From: Clostridium phage JD032 | Sequence record: MK473382.1 | Length of the DNA: 35,109 nt | Direction: 5' to 3' (one strand) | Shown here: positions 6,778 through 12,551 of the stretch, in pieces | Numbering within the stretch: position 1 is the stretch's first letter | How the letters are laid out: every line of letters begins with the position of its first letter | Notes under the pieces: generated by a model | Database searches by the model: none | What the model was told of the DNA's origin: nothing | What the model saw: the letters and a program-made list of their open reading frames with translations, nothing else | Translations under genes and position numbers: made by a program

Positions 6778-8925
6778 TTACATAAAACCTTTTAGTAACA
6801 ATAGTTTTTCCTCTTCATCTAAAGAATTTAACATTCTATCTTTTGTATGTTTTATAGCACGTTCTAAACTCTTATCTTTTTCGTCTAATTCTAAATCTTT
6901 TTTTATGTCATCTATAGTAATATATCTTTTTATATTATTAATCCTAATTCTTGACCTTGGTTCAGTATTAGGATTAATATTTTTATAAAAAAAGATATAT
7001 TCTAATACTGAACCACTTCTATAGTTTTTGTTTTCTATTACAAAAATTTCATTCAATATAATCTCTAATTTTTTAGTATTTAACCCCCAATTTTCCCCTA
7101 AAATTGTTCTTAAATCGTTACTTAACTCTTGCAAATGCAATTTTGTATAAGATGTTCCAATTCCAAATAGCTTATCTATGAAATTAAATACTGTAACTTG
7201 AATAAGTTCATCATTTAAAAATTCCGGACATTCTTCTTTTAATTCTCTATATACCAAAATGTTTATCTTATTAAATATTGTTCCACGCTTTCTATTTTCT
7301 GTATTTGCTAATTTCCACGCAAGGTCTAAATCAAATTTATTATCTAGCACATAGTTAGAATATAGTTCTAACATGCTATTACTTTTACTTTTCTTTACCA
7401 AATTATGTATGTCATACGCTCTGTAAGCCTCTAAGCACCCTTTTGAACTTAGTTTCATATCATTATGATACTGCATTAGTGAAAAGCTCTTAGAATTGCT
7501 TTTAATCTGTCTATAACCTACCAAAATTTCTTTATGTTCTTTTAAAATATTTCTTGTTGCTTCTTTAATTTCTTTTACAACTTTTTTATATTCTTTTAAT
7601 TCTTTTTCATTTGTTTCAATTTCTTTAGCATCAGTTATATTAACATTATCGAAGTATTCTTCTAATAAAACTTTAAAACTTTGTATTGTTCTTGTGTTGT
7701 AATAGTTACTGTAAATTTGGCTTTTTATATACAGTTTATCTACTTTGTAACAATTGTCTTTCATACAGTAATAAACATTTGAATCAATTCGAATTGGTGT
7801 AGCATTTATCCCAACCGTTTCAAACATTAGGGTATGTTTAGATACTTTGTTATAAGCATCTTTTAAGATAGTTGCTTTTTCTATATTTTTATCAACCAAC
7901 CATTCTATTTTATAGACATTACACTCTTCTTTGTATTTATTGAATATGTGTACATTTACTTTTTTTAAATTTCTAAACCTTGCAACATATTGCTTTATAG
8001 CTCCAATATCTTTTATATTAACAATAATTATATCTGTGATATCTTTGTTGTTTATATTTACACCAGCTAGGATTGTTGTTGTATTTAAAAGCGCTTCGTA
8101 ACCTTCCATGTCTGAATTTTTCATTATTCTATTGTATAACTCATTTTCTTCTTTACCGTCTGAATACACAACTCCTGCATTCTTATTCACTGAATCTTTT
8201 ATAAATTCAAGAGTTGATATATCATTCATCAACATGGCGCTGTTTTTAGATTTATTTATTATGTTAATCATTTCAGTAAAATTTTTATTGTCAAAGTCGT
8301 TGTACAATTTAACTTTATATTCTGTTTTTTGCTTTTGAGTGTACTCTATTATGTAGTCATATATTTCAAATTCAAGTTTTGTTGGTGTTGCTGTAATGTC
8401 TATTCTTCCTTTGCACTTAGACATTATATTATTTAGATTTTTTATTGCTTTTCCTCGATATGCATCTGTATAAGTTTGATGTATTTCATCAACTACAATT
8501 ATGTATTCGCTTAAGTCTGTATTTATAAGTTTTTCAGTTTTATCCCAAGTCATTACAACTAAGTTGCCACTTTTAAATGCTTCGCTAACAGGTATTTTGT
8601 CATACGCTCCTGGTATATCATATTCGTGCATTGCTTGCTCTACATTTGAAGCATTTGGAAGTATGAATAATGCTTTAGTTTTTAATTTTTTTAATGTATT
8701 TATAAAACTATAACTTTTTCCTGCTCCCGTCGGCGCAATGAATAGAGTTTTCCCTCCATTTAAAGCGTTGGCTATAGCTGTTTTAATTCCTATTTTTTTT
8801 TCGTTTATATATTTTTTTATTTCGTATGTTTCATGTCTATTGAAATTTGAATAATTTTCTTTTTCATGTTCTGCCCTTTCAGCGTTGCATTCTTCTAGAA
8901 ATAATTTATTTATATTATTTTTCAT
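6778..8925 (-). CDS. SF2 DExH-box helicase with a large C-terminal domain of unknown function
   Basis: 715 aa. Motif I LFIAPTGAGKSY, motif II IIVVDEIHQ, motif III ITATPT, motif VI-like QYVARFRN, all within the first 330 aa or so. The remaining 380 aa have no recognisable motifs. GGGGGA RBS 7 nt upstream. Confidence 0.8.
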   Translation of the reverse strand: MKNNINKLFLEECNAERAEHEKENYSNFNRHETYEIKKYINEKKIGIKTAIANALNGGKTLFIAPTGAGKSYSFINTLKKLKTKALFILPNASNVEQAMHEYDIPGAYDKIPVSEAFKSGNLVVMTWDKTEKLINTDLSEYIIVVDEIHQTYTDAYRGKAIKNLNNIMSKCKGRIDITATPTKLEFEIYDYIIEYTQKQKTEYKVKLYNDFDNKNFTEMINIINKSKNSAMLMNDISTLEFIKDSVNKNAGVVYSDGKEENELYNRIMKNSDMEGYEALLNTTTILAGVNINNKDITDIIIVNIKDIGAIKQYVARFRNLKKVNVHIFNKYKEECNVYKIEWLVDKNIEKATILKDAYNKVSKHTLMFETVGINATPIRIDSNVYYCMKDNCYKVDKLYIKSQIYSNYYNTRTIQSFKVLLEEYFDNVNITDAKEIETNEKELKEYKKVVKEIKEATRNILKEHKEILVGYRQIKSNSKSFSLMQYHNDMKLSSKGCLEAYRAYDIHNLVKKSKSNSMLELYSNYVLDNKFDLDLAWKLANTENRKRGTIFNKINILVYRELKEECPEFLNDELIQVTVFNFIDKLFGIGTSYTKLHLQELSNDLRTILGENWGLNTKKLEIILNEIFVIENKNYRSGSVLEYIFFYKNINPNTEPRSRIRINNIKRYITIDDIKKDLELDEKDKSLERAIKHTKDRMLNSLDEEEKLLLLKGFM
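6929..7016. repeat. copy B of the same element, inside the 3' coding region of the helicase gene
   Basis: Contains a perfect 13-bp inverted repeat GTTCAGTATTAGG...(36 nt AT-rich)...TCTAATACTGAAC. On the minus strand it encodes ...FYKNINPNTEPRSRIRI... Confidence 0.5.
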
Positions 8926-9014
8926 TTTAAATCCCCCTTATTTTACAGGGAAAAATAAAACCTATTTTCTGTTTTTTAGTAGAATTTTACTAATTAAAAA
9001 TACTCTAAAAAAAC

Positions 9015-9043
9015 TTGATTCCTATTGCTTTTTGCTCTATAAT
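9015..9043 (+). promoter_or_regulatory. consensus sigma-A-type promoter (TTGATT, 17 nt, TATAAT)
   Basis: TTGATT at 9015-9020, 17-nt spacer, TATAAT at 9038-9043. No ORF start within 300 nt downstream. Confidence 0.55.
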
Positions 9044-9049
9044 AAGAAT

Positions 9050-9162
9050 ATAGCAATTAGAAAATAAGGATATTTGCGTATCCCAAAATAAGGGTCCATT
9101 TTCCCTGATGGTGAGGAATACTATTGTTTGACGGCAAGTGAGTATTCCTCTTTTATTTTTTT
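9050..9162 (+). ncRNA. candidate ~110-nt small RNA, or terminated leader/attenuator upstream of the exonuclease gene
   Basis: Predicted transcript from the promoter above to an intrinsic terminator GAGGAATACT-(18 nt)-AGTATTCCTC + TTTTATTTTTTT (9113-9162). Internal small stems GGATAtttgcgTATCC and AGGGtccattttCCCT. Confidence 0.35.
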
Positions 9163-9304
9163 GTATTTAAAAATCTAATTTAAAAAAATCGGCTTATTCT
9201 CATTTTATGATTATAATTATATCACATTTAATTTATAAAAAAATATACTGTTTTAAAAAATCAATTAAATTTTAGAAATATTTTTTTAAAATGTTAAATT
9301 TTAC

Positions 9305-9340
9305 TAAGACTTAGTATACAAACTAAGTCTTATTTTTTAT
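9305..9340. promoter_or_regulatory. perfect 11-bp inverted repeat plus T-run directly upstream of the exonuclease RBS (operator or attenuator hairpin)
   Basis: TAAGACTTAGT-atacaa-ACTAAGTCTTA followed by TTTTTTAT. Sits 28 nt before the GTG start of the 9369 gene. Confidence 0.4.
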
Positions 9341-9368
9341 AATTAAACTGTAAAGGGGGAATGGCTTT

Positions 9369-10091
9369 GTGTTTAATTCAGTAAAAAGATTTTTAAAAAC
9401 ATTAAAAGAACCAGTTCTAACTGAATTTGATATTGCAAAACAATATGATTTTAGCAAAGAACTTTCTAGTGATATAATTAGTTCTTTTAAAAGTCAAAAA
9501 GAAATTGAGTACGAAAAATTTATTAAATTTACAAATTCTAGAAATAAAGTTTTAGAGCATTATATTGTCTTTGATGTAGAGACAACTGGTTTAGATGCTT
9601 CCAAAGAAGATATTATCGAGATAGCAGCTATTAAATTTGAAAGGGATATCCCAAGCGAAATTTTTAGCACATTTGTGAAGCCAAGTAAGAGTATAAGAAA
9701 AAAGATAACTGATATAACAGGGATAACAGACGAAGACGTTGTTAATGCTCCAAGCATTGAGGAAGTGCTTCCGCACTTTTTGAATTTTATAAGTGATTAT
9801 ACTCTTATAGCTCATAACGCTATTTTCGATATGGAGTTTATATTAGATAAATTATATAAGAATGGATATAAAAAGGTTACTAATAAGGTTATAGATACAT
9901 TAACTTTGTCAAGAAAGTACATAAGAACTTATGAGGGTAAAAAACTAAAAAGTTATTCTTTGCCTTCTTTGCACGAAGAATTAGGATTGAATTATAGTTC
10001 TCATAGAGCATTAGAAGATTGCAAGAGTTGCGCATCAGTTTATAAAGCTTGCAAAAGCGAAATGAAGTTTAAAGATGAATTAGTTTATTAG
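9369..10091 (+). CDS. DnaQ-like DEDDh 3'-5' exonuclease (DNA polymerase III epsilon-like) with an N-terminal extension of about 60 aa
   Basis: Exo I IVFDVETTGL, Exo II LIAHNAIFDMEFI, Exo III YSSHRALEDC. GTG start with AAAGGGGGA 8 nt upstream. Confidence 0.8.
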   Translation: MFNSVKRFLKTLKEPVLTEFDIAKQYDFSKELSSDIISSFKSQKEIEYEKFIKFTNSRNKVLEHYIVFDVETTGLDASKEDIIEIAAIKFERDIPSEIFSTFVKPSKSIRKKITDITGITDEDVVNAPSIEEVLPHFLNFISDYTLIAHNAIFDMEFILDKLYKNGYKKVTNKVIDTLTLSRKYIRTYEGKKLKSYSLPSLHEELGLNYSSHRALEDCKSCASVYKACKSEMKFKDELVY

Positions 10092-10209
10092 TTAGTTGTT
10101 AAAATATGTTATAATAATTTTAGCAAGGAAAAAAGTGATTGAAAAAGCGTAAGAGTGGCTATTTCCATATTTAAACGCCAAATTCCATAACGGAAGGAGG
10201 TGGAACAAT

Positions 10210-10308
10210 ATGGTGATAAATTTTTTATTGAGTATACTAGCTGGTGTTATATCAGCTTTCTTATATGAAAAAATAAAAAACCACTCAAACGCCAATAAGA
10301 GTGGTTAA
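10210..10308 (+). CDS. type I toxin-like small hydrophobic peptide (32 aa)
   Basis: MVINFLLSILAGVISAFLYEKIKNHSNANKSG, one predicted TM helix followed by a polar tail. Strong RBS GGAAGGAGGTGG 9 nt upstream. The 3' end overlaps a convergent predicted antisense transcript. Confidence 0.45.
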   Translation: MVINFLLSILAGVISAFLYEKIKNHSNANKSG

Positions 10309-10376
10309 AGAAAATAAGTTATTTTTCAAAACATTGGAAATAGCTACTCTTGTGTAAAGTAAATCATTATTTCCTT
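10266..10376 (-). ncRNA. candidate antisense (antitoxin-like) sRNA convergent with the 32-aa peptide gene
   Basis: Minus-strand extended -10 TGaTATAAT (revcomp of about 10383-10393). Transcript ends at hairpin AACCACTC-(12 nt)-GAGTGGTT (10279-10306) followed on the minus strand by TTTTTTATTTTTT. Overlaps the last 43 nt or so of the peptide ORF. Carries the complement of motifs TAAGAGTGG and AAACGCCAA that also occur in the peptide 5'UTR (10150-10181). Confidence 0.35.
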
Positions 10377-10570
10377 GCTTTTATTATATCACATTTTTTA
10401 AAAAAAGATACAATTTTACATCATTTCTAATATACTAAAATCTTTACTTTTTACCAAAATTTGTTTAAAAAATAGGAGAAAACTATTGTTTTTGACGCCC
10501 CGTCATGGTGTAATATATTTATAGAGAAGGAGGTGAGAAAGCAAAAAAATAAAAGAAAGGAGGCACAGGA

Positions 10571-10699
10571 ATGGGGAGATTAGAAAGAAGTAAAAAGAAA
10601 AGAGAAAACAAATTTAACATAGTTAAAAAAGTTTTCTCCTTCATCCTATTATTACTTAACATAATCCTCGCAGTTCTAAGAATTTTAAAAGAGCTGTAA
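10571..10699 (+). CDS. small membrane peptide (42 aa) with its own promoter and terminator
   Basis: MGRLERSKKKRENKFNIVKKVFSFILLLLNIILAVLRILKEL, basic N-terminus and a C-terminal TM. Promoter TTGACG, 16 nt, TATATT (10492-10519). Two SD sequences (AAGGAGGTGAG, then AAAGGAGG 7 nt before the ATG). Confidence 0.45.
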   Translation: MGRLERSKKKRENKFNIVKKVFSFILLLLNIILAVLRILKEL

Positions 10700-10705
10700 G
10701 GATAG

Positions 10706-10745
10706 CCTAGAGAGAATAACCCTTCTCTCTAGGTGACTTCTTTCT
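10706..10745 (+). terminator. hairpin terminator after the 42-aa peptide gene
   Basis: CCTAGAGAGAA-taaccc-TTCTCTCTAGG, an 11-bp perfect stem. The T-run is weak (tgacTTCTTTCT). Confidence 0.4.
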
Positions 10746-10936
10746 AATATTATAACACATTTCTAAAAAACATGAGTGATAAATTTTATAAGATTTGTAT
10801 TGTTTTAGTTTTAATAACTATAGTTTTAAATATAGTATCTATAGTATTAAACTCTAGTACAAGCAACATACTCGGTTTAGTTTTTAGTGTTGTATTATTA
10901 TTTTTCTTTGTAATACAGCAAAAAAGGAGCTAATGA

Positions 10937-11119
10937 ATGAAAAAAGAAAAAAGAGATTTAAAGTTTAACTTTCATAAAGGTGGGAGTGGGTCGTTTACTC
11001 CTAGAATGAGTGTTCCTAAAAAATGGGCTGATGAAATGGGCATAACAAGAGAAAACCCTAATGTTACGGCAACATTCGAGGGCGACAGGATAATAATTGA
11101 AAAGGCTAAGAATGAATGA
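10937..11119 (+). CDS. AbrB/MazE/SpoVT-family (swapped-hairpin) DNA-binding protein
   Basis: 60 aa. RMSVPKKWADEMGITRENPNVTATFEGDRIIIEK matches the AbrB-N looped-hinge pattern. AAGGAG 7 nt upstream. Hairpin/T-run terminator follows at about 11131-11172. Confidence 0.6.
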   Translation: MKKEKRDLKFNFHKGGSGSFTPRMSVPKKWADEMGITRENPNVTATFEGDRIIIEKAKNE

Positions 11120-11164
11120 CTTTTTCTATAAAAGAAGGTTGCTTTTTTCTTAGCCTTCTTTTTT

Positions 11165-11396
11165 TAAATTTTACTATAATATAAAAATAATACTGTAATA
11201 TTATAAAAATATTATTTTAGTATTGTATATACAATATTTTAGTATTTTTAATATAATATATTGGTATTGTAAAAGCAATATGTAAATATTGTATTTATAT
11301 TATTTGAATATTGTAATTAACAATATTAATATATTGTTGCAATATTATAAAAACAATACTACAATATTATTATAATATTATAAATATAATAATGAG
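11165..11396. repeat. AT-rich array of AATATTG/CAATATT palindromic sites upstream of parA (candidate centromere/operator)
   Basis: Perfect palindrome ATTGTATATACAAT, AATATTGTAATTAACAATATT, AATATTGttgCAATATT, aatactgtaatatt, acaatactacaatatt. At least 8 copies of the heptamer in 230 bp. Confidence 0.5.
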
Positions 11397-11405
11397 GTGG
11401 AGAAA

Positions 11406-12215
11406 ATGGCTAATACAAAGCTACTTACGTACTTTAACATAAAAGGAGGTATCTATAAGACAACAACGTCTATAATGACAGCGTATGAACTTGCGAAAGA
11501 TAAAGATAAAAAAATACTCTTATGGGACTTAGATGTACAAGCAAATCTAACACAATATGTTTATGAAATAAATCATAATGATAATACTACATTAGATATT
11601 TTAAAAGGGATTAGTGCTAATGATGCAATAGTCAAGTCACCTAATGAAAATTACATTAATGTAGACTTAATTCCTTCTGACATACAAATGGCTAGATTTG
11701 AACAAGAGCTATCACCTTTACCAGCCAGAGAAAAATTTTTAGCTCGCTGGTACATGCAAAACTTTAATACTTTGAGTGAGTATGATTATATTATCTGTGA
11801 TTTATCTCCACGCTACGATTTGACAGCTAAAAATGTGCTTTTCTTAGCAGATAGTATAATTATTCCAATTCAAGATAAAAACATTTCTTCTTTAAGAGGA
11901 GCAGAATTATTTAAACAACTCTGGGATGTTGATAGAACCTATTTTGATAAGGAGGATAATATAAAAAGTACTATTTTAGTTGGATTTGAGAAGAAGAAAA
12001 CTCAAATTAGCGATACTTTCGATTCTTATCTGGAAGGGTTTAACGATATGAGAGATATTATGTTAGATACATACATTAGAAAAAATGAGTTTATAGAGAA
12101 GGCACTATTAAAAAAACTATCTCTAACAGATTATACAAAAATAACTAAAGAGCATTTCAGCAGACAGGAATTTACTAATATGTTAGAAGAATTGAAAAGA
12201 AAAGGAGTGTTATAG
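11406..12215 (+). CDS. parA: ParA/Soj-family partition ATPase
   Basis: Deviant Walker A NIKGGIYKTTTS near the N-terminus. 269 aa from the ATG at 11406 (GAGGTGG RBS 5 nt upstream). The track start at 11397 is an upstream GTG. Confidence 0.85.
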   Translation: MANTKLLTYFNIKGGIYKTTTSIMTAYELAKDKDKKILLWDLDVQANLTQYVYEINHNDNTTLDILKGISANDAIVKSPNENYINVDLIPSDIQMARFEQELSPLPAREKFLARWYMQNFNTLSEYDYIICDLSPRYDLTAKNVLFLADSIIIPIQDKNISSLRGAELFKQLWDVDRTYFDKEDNIKSTILVGFEKKKTQISDTFDSYLEGFNDMRDIMLDTYIRKNEFIEKALLKKLSLTDYTKITKEHFSRQEFTNMLEELKRKGVL

Positions 12216-12551
12216 ATGCCAAGATTCGACGGAGAACTTTTATCTAATAAAGAAAAACCAGTTTTTAAAAAAAATGGAACAATCATACAAAATGATTCTA
12301 CAACTACAGACAATAAGACATTAAATATATATAATCTAGTTAATAAGAAAAGTAAAAAGGTAACCATGAGCGCAACGCTTGATGAAGAACTTGTAAATAA
12401 ATTAAAATCTTTTTCTATTGATATGAACAGTGACGTCAGTAAATTATTAAGCGATATACTAACTCGGATTTTATCTGATGTCACTATAAAAGAAGAGAAT
12501 TTAAATATATACAACGAGAGAAATAGAAGAAATAAGACTAAGAAAAAGTAA
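12216..12551 (+). CDS. ParG/omega-like ribbon-helix-helix centromere-binding protein (ParB analogue of a type Ib system)
   Basis: 111 aa. ATG immediately follows the parA stop. Disordered N-terminus, then C-terminal TMSATLDEELVNKLKSFSIDMNSDVSKLLSDILTRIL (beta strand, helix, helix). Basic C-tail. Confidence 0.5.
   Translation: MPRFDGELLSNKEKPVFKKNGTIIQNDSTTTDNKTLNIYNLVNKKSKKVTMSATLDEELVNKLKSFSIDMNSDVSKLLSDILTRILSDVTIKEENLNIYNERNRRNKTKKK

What the first reader, a model, noticed from the sequence alone, without database searches (positions are those of the whole stretch)
10147..10395. Candidate par/Fst-like type I toxin-antitoxin locus (32-aa membrane peptide plus convergent antisense RNA sharing direct repeats)
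The 32-aa ORF has a very strong SD, an N-terminal TM helix and a polar tail, like Fst/Ldr/TxpA-class toxins. A minus-strand extended -10 promoter (TGaTATAAT) about 70 nt downstream would give a roughly 110-nt RNA. That RNA would terminate at a hairpin+T-run inside the 3' end of the peptide ORF, so the two transcripts overlap convergently. The motifs TAAGAGTGG and AAACGCCAA occur both in the toxin 5'UTR (10150-10181) and in the overlap region (10287-10304). The antisense RNA could therefore pair near the RBS as well. This is the DRa/DRb logic of pAD1 par.
Basis: partly seen in the sequence, partly recalled or inferred. Interest (0 to 1): 0.6.

Follow-up and report, generated by a model that had tools for sequence, protein, structure and literature searches.

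The report
Known C. difficile phage type I toxin-antitoxin

Summary
The window is a phiCD506/phiMMP04-like C. difficile phage-plasmid.

The 32-aa peptide is 72-77% identical to CD0904.1 and CD0956.3. Peltier et al. 2020 showed these are growth-arresting toxins neutralised by the convergent antisense RNAs RCd13 and RCd14. The peptide matches NCBIfam NF047374 "CD_typeI_toxin" (E = 1.5e-11) and has no Fst/Ldr match in Pfam. The type I toxin-antitoxin call is therefore right and already known. The par/Fst label holds only as an analogy.

This allele carries a TTA-to-TAA change that removes the last three residues (LRK), so its toxicity is unproven.

- **TAAGAGTGG repeat:** real, family-wide and covarying. 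It is one of four interchangeable elements. In all 31 homologous mRNAs the 5'UTR copy is predicted to pair with the 3'UTR, in a roughly 20-bp long-range helix.
- **3'-truncated transcripts:** in 28 of 31, the 5'UTR copy pairs instead with the 5' arm of the hairpin inside the ORF.
- **AAACGCCAA repeat:** not maintained across the family.
- **Antisense RNA against the 5' region:** pairing is no better than composition-matched shuffles (z = -0.7).
- **Validated homologue:** rescue works without the upstream repeat.

Interest is low. A hok/AapA1-like mRNA fold remains an untested lead.

The parts
10107..10115 (+). Toxin promoter, extended -10 (TGtTATAAT). Predicted transcription start at about 10122 (AGCAAGG...).
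   Evidence: Read from the sequence. The same TGnTATAAT followed by AGCAAGG is conserved in all homologous loci. The resulting 5'UTR of 87-88 nt matches the 83-88 nt mapped for related toxins (PMC5961336).
10122..10385 (+). Predicted toxin mRNA (about 264 nt): 5'UTR, 32-codon ORF and 3'UTR ending in the U-run CCUUGCUUUUAUU.
   Evidence: Folds at -84.2 kcal/mol with z = -8.96 against shuffles. The ends are inferred from the promoter and U-run, not mapped.
10122..10140 (+). P1, 5' strand (AGCAAGGAAA..GUGAUUG). Pairs with the 3' end of the mRNA at 10362-10379.
   Evidence: MFE structure. RNAalifold and pair counts on 14 diverse homologues show helix 1 is 93% paired, with 4 pairs changed on both sides. 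Duplex energy is -19.0 kcal/mol.
10147..10167 (+). E1: the 5'UTR strand of long-range helix P2 (GCGUAAGAGUGGCUAUUUCCA).
   Evidence: Pairs with 10335-10355 in the MFE. Helix 2 is 96% paired with 5 compensatory pairs. E1 pairs with E4 in 31 of 31 homologue MFEs, and with E2 in 28 of 31 truncated transcripts.
10165..10181 (+). Anti-start-codon element CCAUAUU (10165-10171) and anti-SD element CGCC (10176-10179).
   Evidence: In nascent or antisense-bound folds, CCAUAUU pairs with AAUAUGG and CGCC pairs with GGUG. The helix recurs with changed sequence in LIBA6276 (UUUCCAUAG:CUAUGGAAA) and in CDMH1 (CAUAUAAA:UUUAUAUG).
10195..10200 (+). Shine-Dalgarno sequence AGGAGG.
   Evidence: Sequence. Invariant GGAGGTG in the alignment. 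The same consensus is reported for CD0904.1 and CD0956.3.
10210..10308 (+). Toxin ORF, 32 aa: MVINFLLSILAGVISAFLYEKIKNHSNANKSG. It is a short variant of the C. difficile type I toxin family, cut short by a TTA-to-TAA change.
   Evidence: NCBIfam NF047374 E = 1.5e-11. phrog_738 E = 8e-8. Relatives of 35 aa end in ...KSGLRK.
10279..10306 (.). Hairpin E2 (AACCACTC, 10279-10286), 12-nt loop (10287-10298, contains AAACGCCAA) and E3 (GAGTGGTT, 10299-10306, within TAAGAGTGG). On the minus strand it is the antitoxin terminator stem. The loop is the likely kissing-loop site.
   Evidence: 8 bp, 98% paired, 3 pairs with compensatory change (CCACTC/GAGTGG versus TCACCC/GGGTGA). The analogous hairpin ends RCd10 and RCd11.
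10335..10355 (+). E4: the 3'UTR strand of long-range helix P2 (UGGAAAUAGCUACUCUUGUGU).
   Evidence: Duplex with E1 is -30.6 kcal/mol.
10362..10379 (+). P1, 3' strand (..UUAUUUCCUUGCU), followed by a U-run. It overlaps the start of the antisense transcript.
10268..10376 (-). Predicted antitoxin RNA (RCd13/RCd14 homologue), about 107-110 nt. It is fully complementary to the toxin ORF 3' end and 3'UTR.
   Evidence: Promoter and terminator read from the sequence. Fold. Cofold with the toxin mRNA gives a full duplex, ddG -98 kcal/mol. Its existence is inferred from the validated homologues.
10383..10391 (-). Antitoxin promoter, extended -10 (TGaTATAAT on the minus strand).
   Evidence: Sequence. 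The surrounding CCTTGCTTTTATTATATC is conserved and retrieved 120 loci from IMG/VR. It lies within the +230 limit of the rescuing CD0904.1-RCd13 construct.

Best explanation
[quoted passage not shown] It belongs to the short variants, CD0904.1-RCd13 and CD0956.3-RCd14. It sits beside the parA partition module of a phiCD506/phiMMP04-like phage-plasmid.

**Components.**
- A sigma-A promoter (10107-10115) drives a toxin mRNA of about 264 nt that encodes a 32-aa peptide with a single membrane helix.
- A convergent promoter (10391->10383) drives an antisense RNA of about 110 nt. This RNA covers the last 40 nt of the ORF and the 3'UTR, and it terminates at the hairpin inside the ORF.

**Shown in homologues.** The peptide arrests growth. 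The cis-encoded antisense RNA neutralises it. The module stabilises plasmids and prophages by post-segregational killing.

**Inferred here from folding and covariation.**
- The toxin mRNA is closed by a long 5'-3' interaction. P1 joins the 5' end to the 3' end. P2 joins the 5'UTR element E1 to the 3'UTR element E4.
- Before E4 is transcribed, E1 pairs with E2, the 5' arm of the ORF hairpin. In that state CCAUAUU covers the AUG and CGCC covers the SD, which blocks premature translation.
- The 5' part of the antisense RNA has nearly the same sequence as E1. It should therefore displace E1 from E4 when it forms the duplex.
- The duplex probably starts by contact between the two complementary 12-nt hairpin loops. 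The result would be a re-sequestered start codon and a substrate for RNase III.
For: **Host and context.** The region is 98% identical to phiCD506 and to C. difficile circular plasmids of about 33 kb. It lies between an exonuclease gene and parA.

**Homology.**
- tblastn finds the peptide in 41 phage records and 39 plasmid records, nearly all Clostridioides.
- The published cloning primers for CD0904.1-RCd13 map at exactly -43 and +230 on locus L019. This identifies MLINFLLSIVAGIVSAYIYEKIKNHPNANKGDLKK as CD0904.1.
- Identity to the window peptide is 72% over the full length and 77% over 30 aa by tblastn against the phage CDMH1 copy of CD0904.1.
- NCBIfam CD_typeI_toxin gives E = 1.5e-11.
- The window peptide and phiCD38-2 gp33 both match phrog_738. 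Peltier et al. name gp33 as a toxin-antitoxin toxin next to parA.

**Function in homologues.** Toxicity, rescue and plasmid stabilisation are reported in PMC7699646.

**RNA architecture.**
- MFE is -84.2 kcal/mol, z = -8.96.
- The consensus structure on 14 diverse loci is 95.4% paired. It has 12 pairs with changes on both sides, and 0 of 500 shuffles reach that value.
- E1:E2 is 100% paired, with 8 compensatory cells.
- In MFE folds, E1 pairs with E4 in 31 of 31 full-length mRNAs. E1 pairs with E2 in 28 of 31 truncated mRNAs, where the AUG has P(unpaired) of 0.16 or less in 30 of 31, mostly about 0.
- With the antisense-bound region blocked, AUG accessibility falls from 0.39 to 0.0.
Against: - No expression data exist for this locus. 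Both transcript ends are inferred.
- The 32-aa allele lacks the C-terminal LRK, which carries 2 of 5 basic residues, because of a nonsense change. It has not been tested and could be attenuated.
- The peptide scores 44.5 bits, below the curated NCBIfam cutoff of 60. So does validated CD0904.1, at 53.4 bits.
- The structural model rests on thermodynamic prediction and on covariation among related sequences. The GAGUGG-to-GGGUGA switch is essentially one evolutionary event.
- P1 covariation could instead reflect the identical +1 regions (AGCAAGGAAA) of the two promoters.
- In some homologues the AUG is predicted to be paired with or without the antisense RNA (CDMH1, LIBA6276). The displacement step is therefore not general.
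- For CD0977.1 the mapped 3' end stops about 21 nt short of the antisense start. In this locus that would remove P1.
Confidence: 0.85

Rival explanations
1. This is the first reader's model: a par/Fst-like system. The antisense RNA would pair with the overlap and also, through the two direct repeats, with the toxin 5'UTR near the RBS, blocking translation as RNA II does through DRa and DRb in pAD1 par.
For: - The 5' arm and loop of the antisense terminator (CCACUCUUA, UUGGCGUUU) are exactly complementary to 10150-10158 and 10173-10181.
- The first repeat tracks the hairpin sequence across the family and extends to 10-12 nt in CDMH1, phiCDKH02 and the ES phages.
- The antisense against the 5' region gives z = -3.6 to -3.9 in those loci.
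- A G-to-A difference in L013 and L036 keeps G.U pairing.
Against: - The order of the repeats is swapped, so the two helices cannot be nested.
- Both lie 29-60 nt upstream of the AUG, not on the RBS.
- Pairing at AAACGCCAA would free the SD rather than hide it.
- AAACGCCAA is not maintained as a repeat in L013, L034b, LIBA6276, L028 or the ES loci.
- In the window the antisense:5' region energy equals that of shuffles (z = -0.7).
- The complementary antisense segment is buried in its own terminator stem. E1 is buried in a 20-bp helix (-30.6 kcal/mol), against roughly 9 bp for the rival pairing.
- RCd13 rescues a CD0904.1 construct that lacks the first repeat.
- There is no Fst/Ldr match.
Confidence: 0.1
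2. The locus is a decaying or attenuated copy. The nonsense change has inactivated or weakened the toxin. What persists is mainly the antisense RNA, which could act as an anti-addiction or cross-protection element, or the locus is simply a recent pseudogene.
For: - A TTA-to-TAA change removes LRK, while close relatives keep 34-35 aa ending in LRK or LKK.
- Peltier et al. stress a conserved lysine-rich tail.
- An orphan antitoxin with an N-terminally truncated toxin remnant exists in phiCD211 (L010). Toxin loss with antitoxin retention therefore does occur in this family.
Against: - The allele is common: 14 plasmid records plus phiCD506 are 100% identical.
- Promoter, SD, start codon and all RNA elements are intact.
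- Three lysines remain in the tail.
- The review cites homologues of 30-56 aa.
- In my recollection of the Fst literature, the C-terminal tail is dispensable for toxicity in that family. This was not checked here.
Confidence: 0.25
3. The locus is not a toxin-antitoxin system. The peptide would be a small phage membrane protein with another role, such as holin-like, superinfection exclusion or partition accessory, and the antisense features would be incidental.
For: - Several other small membrane ORFs lie next to it: 42 aa at 10571-10699 and 53 aa at 10772-10933.
- No annotation pipeline calls the ORF.
Against: - There is direct homology to experimentally validated toxins and a conserved antisense promoter and terminator.
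- The peptide tail changes (KNHS..KSG to KNHP..KGD) track the RNA hairpin, showing selection on the antisense architecture.
Confidence: 0.04

Closest known systems
CD0904.1-RCd13 and CD0956.3-RCd14 (C. difficile 630 prophage phiCD630-1; Peltier et al. 2020, PMC7699646)
   Same: - The peptide is homologous, at 72-77% identity.
- AGGAGG RBS and a 5'UTR of about 88 nt.
- A convergent antisense RNA from a conserved extended -10 promoter about 70 nt downstream of the stop codon.
- An antisense terminator hairpin encoded by the K-N-H-S/P ... K-S/G-G/D codons.
- Phage location.
- All four E1-E4 elements are present.
   Different: - 32 aa rather than 34-35 aa, because of a nonsense change that removes LRK/LKK.
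- The hairpin core is CCACTC/GAGTGG rather than TCACCC/GGGTGA.
- It is carried on an extrachromosomal phage-plasmid next to parA rather than in an integrated prophage.
- It has not been tested experimentally.
Long variants: CD0956.2-RCd10, CD2907.1-RCd9, CD0977.1-RCd11 and phiCD38-2 gp33 (NCBIfam NF047374 CD_typeI_toxin)
   Same: - The same family: N-terminal NFLL..LAGVI helix and a KNHS..KSG motif.
- The same genomic slot beside parA in phiCD38-2 and phiMMP04.
- The 5'UTR copy AAAAGAGTGG matches the ORF copy.
   Different: - 47-53 aa with a longer lysine-rich tail.
- About 50% identity over the shared part.
- Some antitoxins are linked to c-di-GMP riboswitches or CRISPR arrays.
par (Fst/RNA I-RNA II) of pAD1, Enterococcus faecalis
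   Same: - A small membrane toxin on a Gram-positive mobile element.
- Convergent transcripts.
- The antisense terminator takes part in recognition.
- Short direct repeats are present in the locus.
   Different: - No sequence relationship: Pfam shows no Fst hit.
- The overlap is about 110 nt rather than the terminator only.
- The repeats are in swapped order and lie upstream of the RBS rather than over it.
- The evidence favours pairing within the mRNA rather than intermolecular pairing.
hok/Sok (plasmid R1) and aapA1/IsoA1 (Helicobacter pylori)
   Same: - A long-distance 5'-3' interaction closes a very stable toxin mRNA.
- Alternative, metastable pairings in the nascent transcript hide the translation start.
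   Different: - No homology.
- In those systems the antisense RNA targets the 5' region, and 3' processing activates translation.
- Here the antisense RNA targets the 3' end, and truncated forms are predicted to be less translatable, not more.
- This locus has prediction only.
bsrG/SR4 (Bacillus subtilis SPbeta)
   Same: A 3'-overlapping antisense RNA from a prophage. Its binding is proposed to alter the structure around the distant RBS as well as to trigger degradation.
   Different: - An unrelated toxin.
- The structural change is shown experimentally for SR4 and is only simulated here.

Membership tests
C. difficile phage type I TA (CD_typeI_toxin, NF047374; CD0904.1/CD0956.3 short variants) | Toxin sequence homology to validated members | tested here: met
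   - 72% identity (full length) to 77% (30 aa) with CD0904.1, whose identity was fixed by primer mapping.
- NF047374 gives E = 1.5e-11 at 44.5 bits. This is below the curated 60-bit cutoff, as is validated CD0904.1 at 53.4 bits.
- phrog_738 is shared with phiCD38-2 gp33.
C. difficile phage type I TA (CD_typeI_toxin, NF047374; CD0904.1/CD0956.3 short variants) | Hydrophobic N-terminal helix and a lysine-rich, positively charged C-terminus | tested here: inconclusive
   The helix at residues 2-19 is present. The tail EKIKNHSNANKSG keeps 3 Lys, but the terminal LRK is lost to a TAA stop.
C. difficile phage type I TA (CD_typeI_toxin, NF047374; CD0904.1/CD0956.3 short variants) | Consensus AGGAGG RBS upstream of the ATG and a long 5'UTR (83-88 nt) | tested here: met
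   AGGAGG lies at 10195-10200. The predicted 5'UTR is 87-88 nt.
C. difficile phage type I TA (CD_typeI_toxin, NF047374; CD0904.1/CD0956.3 short variants) | Convergent antisense RNA gene with its own sigma-A promoter downstream and its terminator inside the toxin ORF | tested here: met
   - At sequence level, TGaTATAAT reads 10391->10383.
- The hairpin with U-run spans 10306->10266.
- Both are conserved, with compensatory changes, in 31 unique loci.
- Transcription itself was not tested.
C. difficile phage type I TA (CD_typeI_toxin, NF047374; CD0904.1/CD0956.3 short variants) | Location in a C. difficile phage, prophage or plasmid | tested here: met
   The window is 98% identical to phiCD506 and to C. 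difficile plasmids of about 33 kb.
C. difficile phage type I TA (CD_typeI_toxin, NF047374; CD0904.1/CD0956.3 short variants) | Growth arrest on toxin induction, rescue by the cognate antisense RNA, and an unstable antitoxin with a stable toxin mRNA | not testable with these tools
   Shown for homologues only (PMC7699646).
par / Fst-RNA II (pAD1) and the Fst/Ldr toxin superfamily | Toxin belongs to the Fst/Ldr family | tested here: not met
   The Pfam scan at E <= 1 returns only NCE101 and TraL noise and no Fst-type family. NCBIfam assigns the peptide to CD_typeI_toxin. The review states there is no homology to known type I toxins of other bacteria.
par / Fst-RNA II (pAD1) and the Fst/Ldr toxin superfamily | The transcripts overlap only at a bidirectional terminator. 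Recognition at the toxin 5' end comes from direct repeats DRa and DRb transcribed in opposite directions and covering the initiation region. (This description is from my own knowledge of par.) | tested here: not met
   - The overlap is about 110 nt of contiguous complementarity.
- The repeats are in swapped order and lie 29-60 nt upstream of the AUG.
- Antisense against the 5' region gives z = -0.7.
hok/Sok- and aapA/IsoA-type mRNA architecture (a mechanistic class, not a homology family) | A 5'-3' long-distance interaction closes the full-length toxin mRNA | tested here: met
   Predicted in 31 of 31 homologues, with 28-39 long-range pairs. Covariation is shown. This is prediction only.
hok/Sok- and aapA/IsoA-type mRNA architecture (a mechanistic class, not a homology family) | 3' processing activates translation, and the antisense RNA binds the 5' region of the processed form | tested here: not met
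   Truncated forms are predicted to keep the AUG paired. The antisense RNA is complementary to the 3' end.

The most novel reading that the evidence does not exclude
The whole C. difficile CD_typeI_toxin family may share a four-element RNA switch (E1 to E4) that has not been described.

- **Elements:** E1 is in the 5'UTR, E2 and E3 are the arms of the hairpin inside the ORF, and E4 is in the 3'UTR.
- **Nascent transcripts:** E1 pairs with E2 while the start codon is covered.
- **Completed transcripts:** E1 moves to E4 and the mRNA ends pair. This gives the very stable, tightly folded toxin mRNA seen experimentally.
- **Antitoxin action:** the 5' end of the antitoxin mimics E1. It would act partly by evicting the 5'UTR from the 3'UTR, so that the start codon is re-sequestered.

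This would be a Gram-positive, 3'-overlap counterpart of the hok and aapA1 folding pathways. It would also show peptide tail residues (KNHS..KSG versus KNHP..KGD) dictated by RNA structure.
Probability: 0.35. Interest if true: 0.5.

Novelty: already known. Interest (0 to 1): 0.25.

Why it matters
As a toxin-antitoxin locus it adds little, for three reasons:

- The family, its antisense antitoxins and its role in phage and plasmid maintenance were published in 2018-2020.
- Homologues of 30-56 aa were reported in all C. difficile phages and in plasmids.
- NCBI has a family model.

**Practical points.**
- The gene is missing from the phiCD506 and plasmid annotations, because short variants fall below the model cutoff.
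- The common 32-aa allele is a natural tail truncation. It offers a ready test of whether the basic tail is needed for toxicity.

**Lead.** The repeats point to a conserved long-range fold of the toxin mRNA with alternative pairings. This could explain two published observations: the 89-min half-life and the "tightly folded" toxin mRNA that binds antitoxin poorly in vitro. These toxins are used as counter-selection markers in C. difficile genetics, so knowing which UTR elements repress them has some applied value.

Tried and rejected
- **Rfam:** a scan of 8900-11500 at E <= 10 gave only noise, so no curated family covers these RNAs.
- I used a DNA pattern scan of the conserved antitoxin promoter instead.
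- **Promoter and terminator scan:** it missed both extended -10 promoters and the 12-nt-loop hairpin because of its rules. I checked these by eye and by conservation.
- **First shuffle test of the repeats:** it was inflated by A-runs (P = 0.19 for one 9-mer). I redid it with a G/C filter.
- **AAACGCCAA as a functional antisense target:** rejected. It is not kept as a repeat in five lineages, and its 5'UTR copy is the anti-SD strand.
- **An extended collinear duplex of the antisense RNA with the SD and AUG:** it looked attractive at -34 kcal/mol but is compositional, since shuffles do as well.
- **A general "antisense opens or closes the AUG" switch:** only partly supported. In CDMH1, LIBA6276 and L028 the AUG is predicted to be paired in both states.
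- **A GCGU:ACGC extension of E1:E2:** seen in the window but not conserved in CDMH1, judged by eye.
- **A second family copy in the window:** none found.
Full report
**1. What is in the sequence**

- The ORF at 10210..10308 encodes MVINFLLSILAGVISAFLYEKIKNHSNANKSG. AGGAGG lies at 10195-10200.
- On the minus strand, TGaTATAAT reads 10391->10383.
- About 75 nt further along that strand is the hairpin AACCACTC / 12-nt loop / GAGTGGTT (10306->10279). It is followed by TTTTTTATTTTTT, so an antisense RNA of about 107-110 nt would end inside the last 30 nt of the ORF.
- The stem is 8 bp, not 6, at -10.8 kcal/mol. The generic scan misses it, and misses both promoters, because of its own rules.
- The plus strand has its own extended -10, TGtTATAAT at 10107-10115. 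This gives a 5'UTR of 87-88 nt.
- TAAGAGTGG occurs at 10150-10158 and 10296-10304. AAACGCCAA occurs at 10173-10181 and 10287-10295. The order is swapped between the two sites.
- Two such G/C-containing 9-mers are shared by chance in about 5e-5 of shuffles.

**2. Where the window comes from**

- The region is 98% identical to Clostridium phage phiCD506 (Sherbrookevirus, phiMMP04-like). It is 98-99% identical to a dozen circular C. difficile "plasmids" of about 33 kb.
- The locus lies between a 3'-5' exonuclease gene (9369-10091) and a partition module. That module has an AbrB/MazE-like 60-aa protein and ParA at 11397-12215.
- The 32-aa ORF is not annotated in any of these records.

**3. What the peptide is**

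- tblastn finds it in 41 phage and 39 plasmid records, almost all Clostridioides. Identity ranges from 100% down to about 50%.
- The weakest hits include phiCD38-2 gp33 (MDNFLLNVLAGVIASLIFYIISKLFRQVKNHSAQKSGWEFDLRIKFKKFK). Peltier et al. 2020 explicitly name gp33 as a type I toxin carried with parA (PMC7699646).
- That paper found, by tblastn with CD0956.2, the unannotated short toxins CD0904.1 (35 aa) and CD0956.3 (34 aa). It showed that they arrest growth, that the convergent antisense RNAs RCd13 and RCd14 rescue, and that the modules stabilise plasmids.
- The paper's figures are not held, so I recovered the sequences from its cloning primers.
  - JP594 and JP635 map at exactly -43 and +230 of the ATG in locus L019, as the methods state.
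  - This fixes CD0904.1 as MLINFLLSIVAGIVSAYIYEKIKNHPNANKGDLKK. The phage CDMH1 copy is identical.
  - The CD0956.3 primers match the phiCDKH02-type locus (MIGFLLSILAGVISAYIYDKIKNHPDANKGDLKK).
- The window peptide is 72% identical to CD0904.1 over the full length, 77% over 30 aa against its CDMH1 copy and 76% against the phiCDKH02 copy of CD0956.3.
- NCBIfam has a model for the family, NF047374 "CD_typeI_toxin".
  - The window peptide scores E = 1.5e-11 at 44.5 bits.
  - Validated CD0904.1 scores 53.4 bits, and gp33 scores 94.3 bits.
  - The curated cutoff is 60 bits, which explains why short variants go unannotated.
- Pfam shows no Fst/Ldr-type hit. PHROGs puts the peptide and gp33 in the same family, phrog_738.
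- The authors state that homologues occur in all C. difficile phages, including the phiMMP04-like group, and in plasmids, with lengths of 30-56 aa.
- The toxin-antitoxin call is therefore correct and already published. The par/Fst label is an analogy only.

**4. A peculiarity of this allele**

- Close relatives (phiCD146, phiCDHM13 and several IMG/VR contigs) encode 35 aa ending in ...KSGLRK.
- The window, phiCD506 and 14 plasmids have TAA where the relatives have TTA. This removes LRK.
- Promoter, RBS and all RNA elements are intact. Whether the truncated peptide is still toxic is unknown.

**5. Testing the direct-repeat idea with relatives**

- The conserved antitoxin promoter pattern retrieved 120 IMG/VR loci. 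These gave 31 distinct toxin mRNAs.
- The first repeat is a family-wide feature and it covaries.
  - Loci with hairpin arms CCACTC/GAGTGG have GAGTGG in the 5'UTR, or GGGTGG, which still allows G.U pairing.
  - Loci with TCACCC/GGGTGA have GGGTGA in the 5'UTR.
  - The peptide tail changes with the hairpin (KNHS..KSG to KNHP..KGD), so the RNA constrains the protein here.
- The second repeat is not maintained. L013, L034b, LIBA6276, L028 and the ES phages lack a matching 5'UTR copy.

**6. What the repeat is for**

- The full-length mRNA (10122-10385) folds at -84.2 kcal/mol, z = -8.96.
  - The 5' end pairs with the 3' end (P1: 10122-10140 with 10362-10379).
  - GCGUAAGAGUGGCUAUUUCC (E1, 10147-10166) pairs with GGAAAUAGCUACUCUUGUGU (E4, 10336-10355). 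This is helix P2, 20-21 bp at -30.6 kcal/mol.
  - The ORF hairpin (E2:E3) forms locally.
- RNAalifold on 14 diverse loci recovers P1, P2 and the hairpin.
  - 95.4% of cells are paired.
  - 12 of 33 pairs change on both sides.
  - No shuffle out of 500 reaches the observed values, and slid controls fall to about 50% paired.
- The alternative pairings are equally compatible. E1:E2 is 100% paired with 8 compensatory cells. E3:E4 is 96% paired.
- In MFE folds of all 31 mRNAs, E1 pairs with E4 in the full-length molecule. In transcripts cut 8 nt after E3, E1 pairs with E2 in 28 of 31, although E3 is available. The AUG is then fully paired.
- In that state CCAUAUU (10165-10171) covers AAUAUGG and CGCC (10176-10179) covers GGUG of the SD.
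- The anti-AUG helix recurs with different sequence in other lineages.
- The simplest account of the TAAGAGTGG repeat is that E1 and E3 are alternative partners of one strand, E2.
- The 5'UTR copy of AAACGCCAA is an anti-SD element. The ORF copy is the 12-nt loop of the hairpin, which faces the fully complementary loop of the antitoxin terminator. That makes it an obvious kissing site; this is inference. Kissing was reported for RCd9/CD2907.1 but was not seen for RCd11.

**7. Does the antisense RNA also bind the 5'UTR?**

- The antisense RNA is complementary to E4. Its 5' part (ACACAAGAGUAGCUAUUUCC) is therefore a near copy of E1, not its complement.
- Its terminator arm is complementary to E1 over 9 nt, but that arm is locked in the terminator stem.
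- The best antisense:5' region duplex is -32 to -34 kcal/mol and includes the SD through G.U pairs.
- This energy is compositional. Dinucleotide shuffles of the 5' region do as well in 22% of cases (z = -0.7). Across lineages z ranges from -0.4 to -3.9.
- The published rescue construct for CD0904.1 begins at -43 and lacks E1. E1 is therefore not needed for neutralisation there.
- Blocking the antisense target region in silico lowers AUG accessibility in most short variants (window 0.39 to 0.0). In several lineages, however, the AUG is already paired.
- An indirect, bsrG/SR4-like effect on translation is therefore possible but not general.

**8. Comparison with known systems**

- By homology and architecture the locus belongs to the C. 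difficile CD_typeI_toxin family, short variants.
- It is not a par/Fst member.
- The predicted 5'-3' closure and the nascent-transcript alternative resemble hok and aapA1, where a long-distance interaction is described (T1TAdb). The differences are that the antisense RNA targets the 3' end and that truncation is not predicted to activate translation.
- The texts of the three C. difficile papers I read mention only long 5'UTRs, predicted RBS sequestration ("data not shown") and a "tightly folded" toxin mRNA with an 89-min half-life.
- They do not describe direct repeats or a 5'-3' interaction. Their structure figures are not available to me.

**9. Caveats**

- No transcript ends are mapped for this locus.
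- The covariation rests on related sequences and on few independent events.
- P1 covariation could reflect the identical +1 sequences (AGCAAGGAAA) of the two promoters.
- In CD0977.1 the mapped mRNA 3' end stops 21 nt before the antisense start. Here that would leave P2 intact but remove P1.

**10. Verdict**

- The system is already known.
- The residual interest lies in the natural tail-truncated allele and in the conserved, testable mRNA fold that the repeats reveal.

Noticed in passing
window 10492-10734: A second small membrane-peptide gene lies 260 nt downstream.
- The ORF at 10571-10699 (42 aa, MGRLERSKKKRENKFNIVKKVFSFILLLLNIILAVLRILKEL) has a basic N-terminus and a C-terminal helix.
- It has a good promoter (TTGACG-16-TATATT, 10492-10519), a strong SD and a 12-bp terminator (10705-10734).
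- It matches phrog_5134 (unknown function) and corresponds to phiCD38-2 gp32, a "putative membrane protein".
- It could be another toxin-like or exclusion peptide.
   Followed up: partly
window 10772-12551: A plasmid-style maintenance block follows the toxin-antitoxin locus.
- A 53-aa membrane protein (phrog_11497).
- A 60-aa AbrB/MazE-like protein (10937-11119; weak PF04014 hit).
- ParA (11397-12215).
- A 111-aa ORF with no family hit, possibly ParB-like.
This fits an extrachromosomal phage-plasmid lifestyle.
   Followed up: partly
L012 (phiMMP04) and L003 (phiCD38-2) compared with window 10100-10400: The toxin-antitoxin cassette is exchanged as a unit. phiMMP04 is about 94% identical to the window on both sides but carries the 50-aa long variant in the same slot. 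Within the family, 3'UTR and antitoxin-5' modules also recombine. For example, L014 and L006 share the CD0956.3-type ORF but have different 3'UTRs.
   Followed up: partly
L010 (phiCD211, locus coordinates about 500-680): This is an apparently orphan antitoxin. The toxin ORF has lost its start and N-terminus (...NIATSLIACYIYDKAKNHSNANKSGFKR*). The hairpin, 3'UTR and antitoxin promoter are intact.
   Followed up: no
L008, L009, L031 (ES-type and phiCD211-like large phages), 5'UTR: These loci carry two tandem SD-like sequences (GGAAGGAGGTGA ... GGGAGGTGA) about 35 nt apart upstream of a 38-aa toxin. The first might serve a tiny leader ORF or act as a decoy. I did not examine it.
   Followed up: no
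window 10116-10131 (+) and 10382-10368 (-): The toxin and antitoxin transcripts are predicted to begin with the same sequence, AGCAAGGAAA, directly after TGnTATAAT. The ES lineage has AGTAAGG at both. This could reflect RNA pairing (P1) or a shared requirement of the initially transcribed region.
   Followed up: partly
plasmid hits H105, H119, H120: Weak homologues of the toxin (46-55% identity) occur on plasmids of Terrisporobacter petrolearius and Paraclostridium bifermentans. This extends the family beyond Clostridioides, as Peltier et al. noted for P. sordellii.
   Followed up: no
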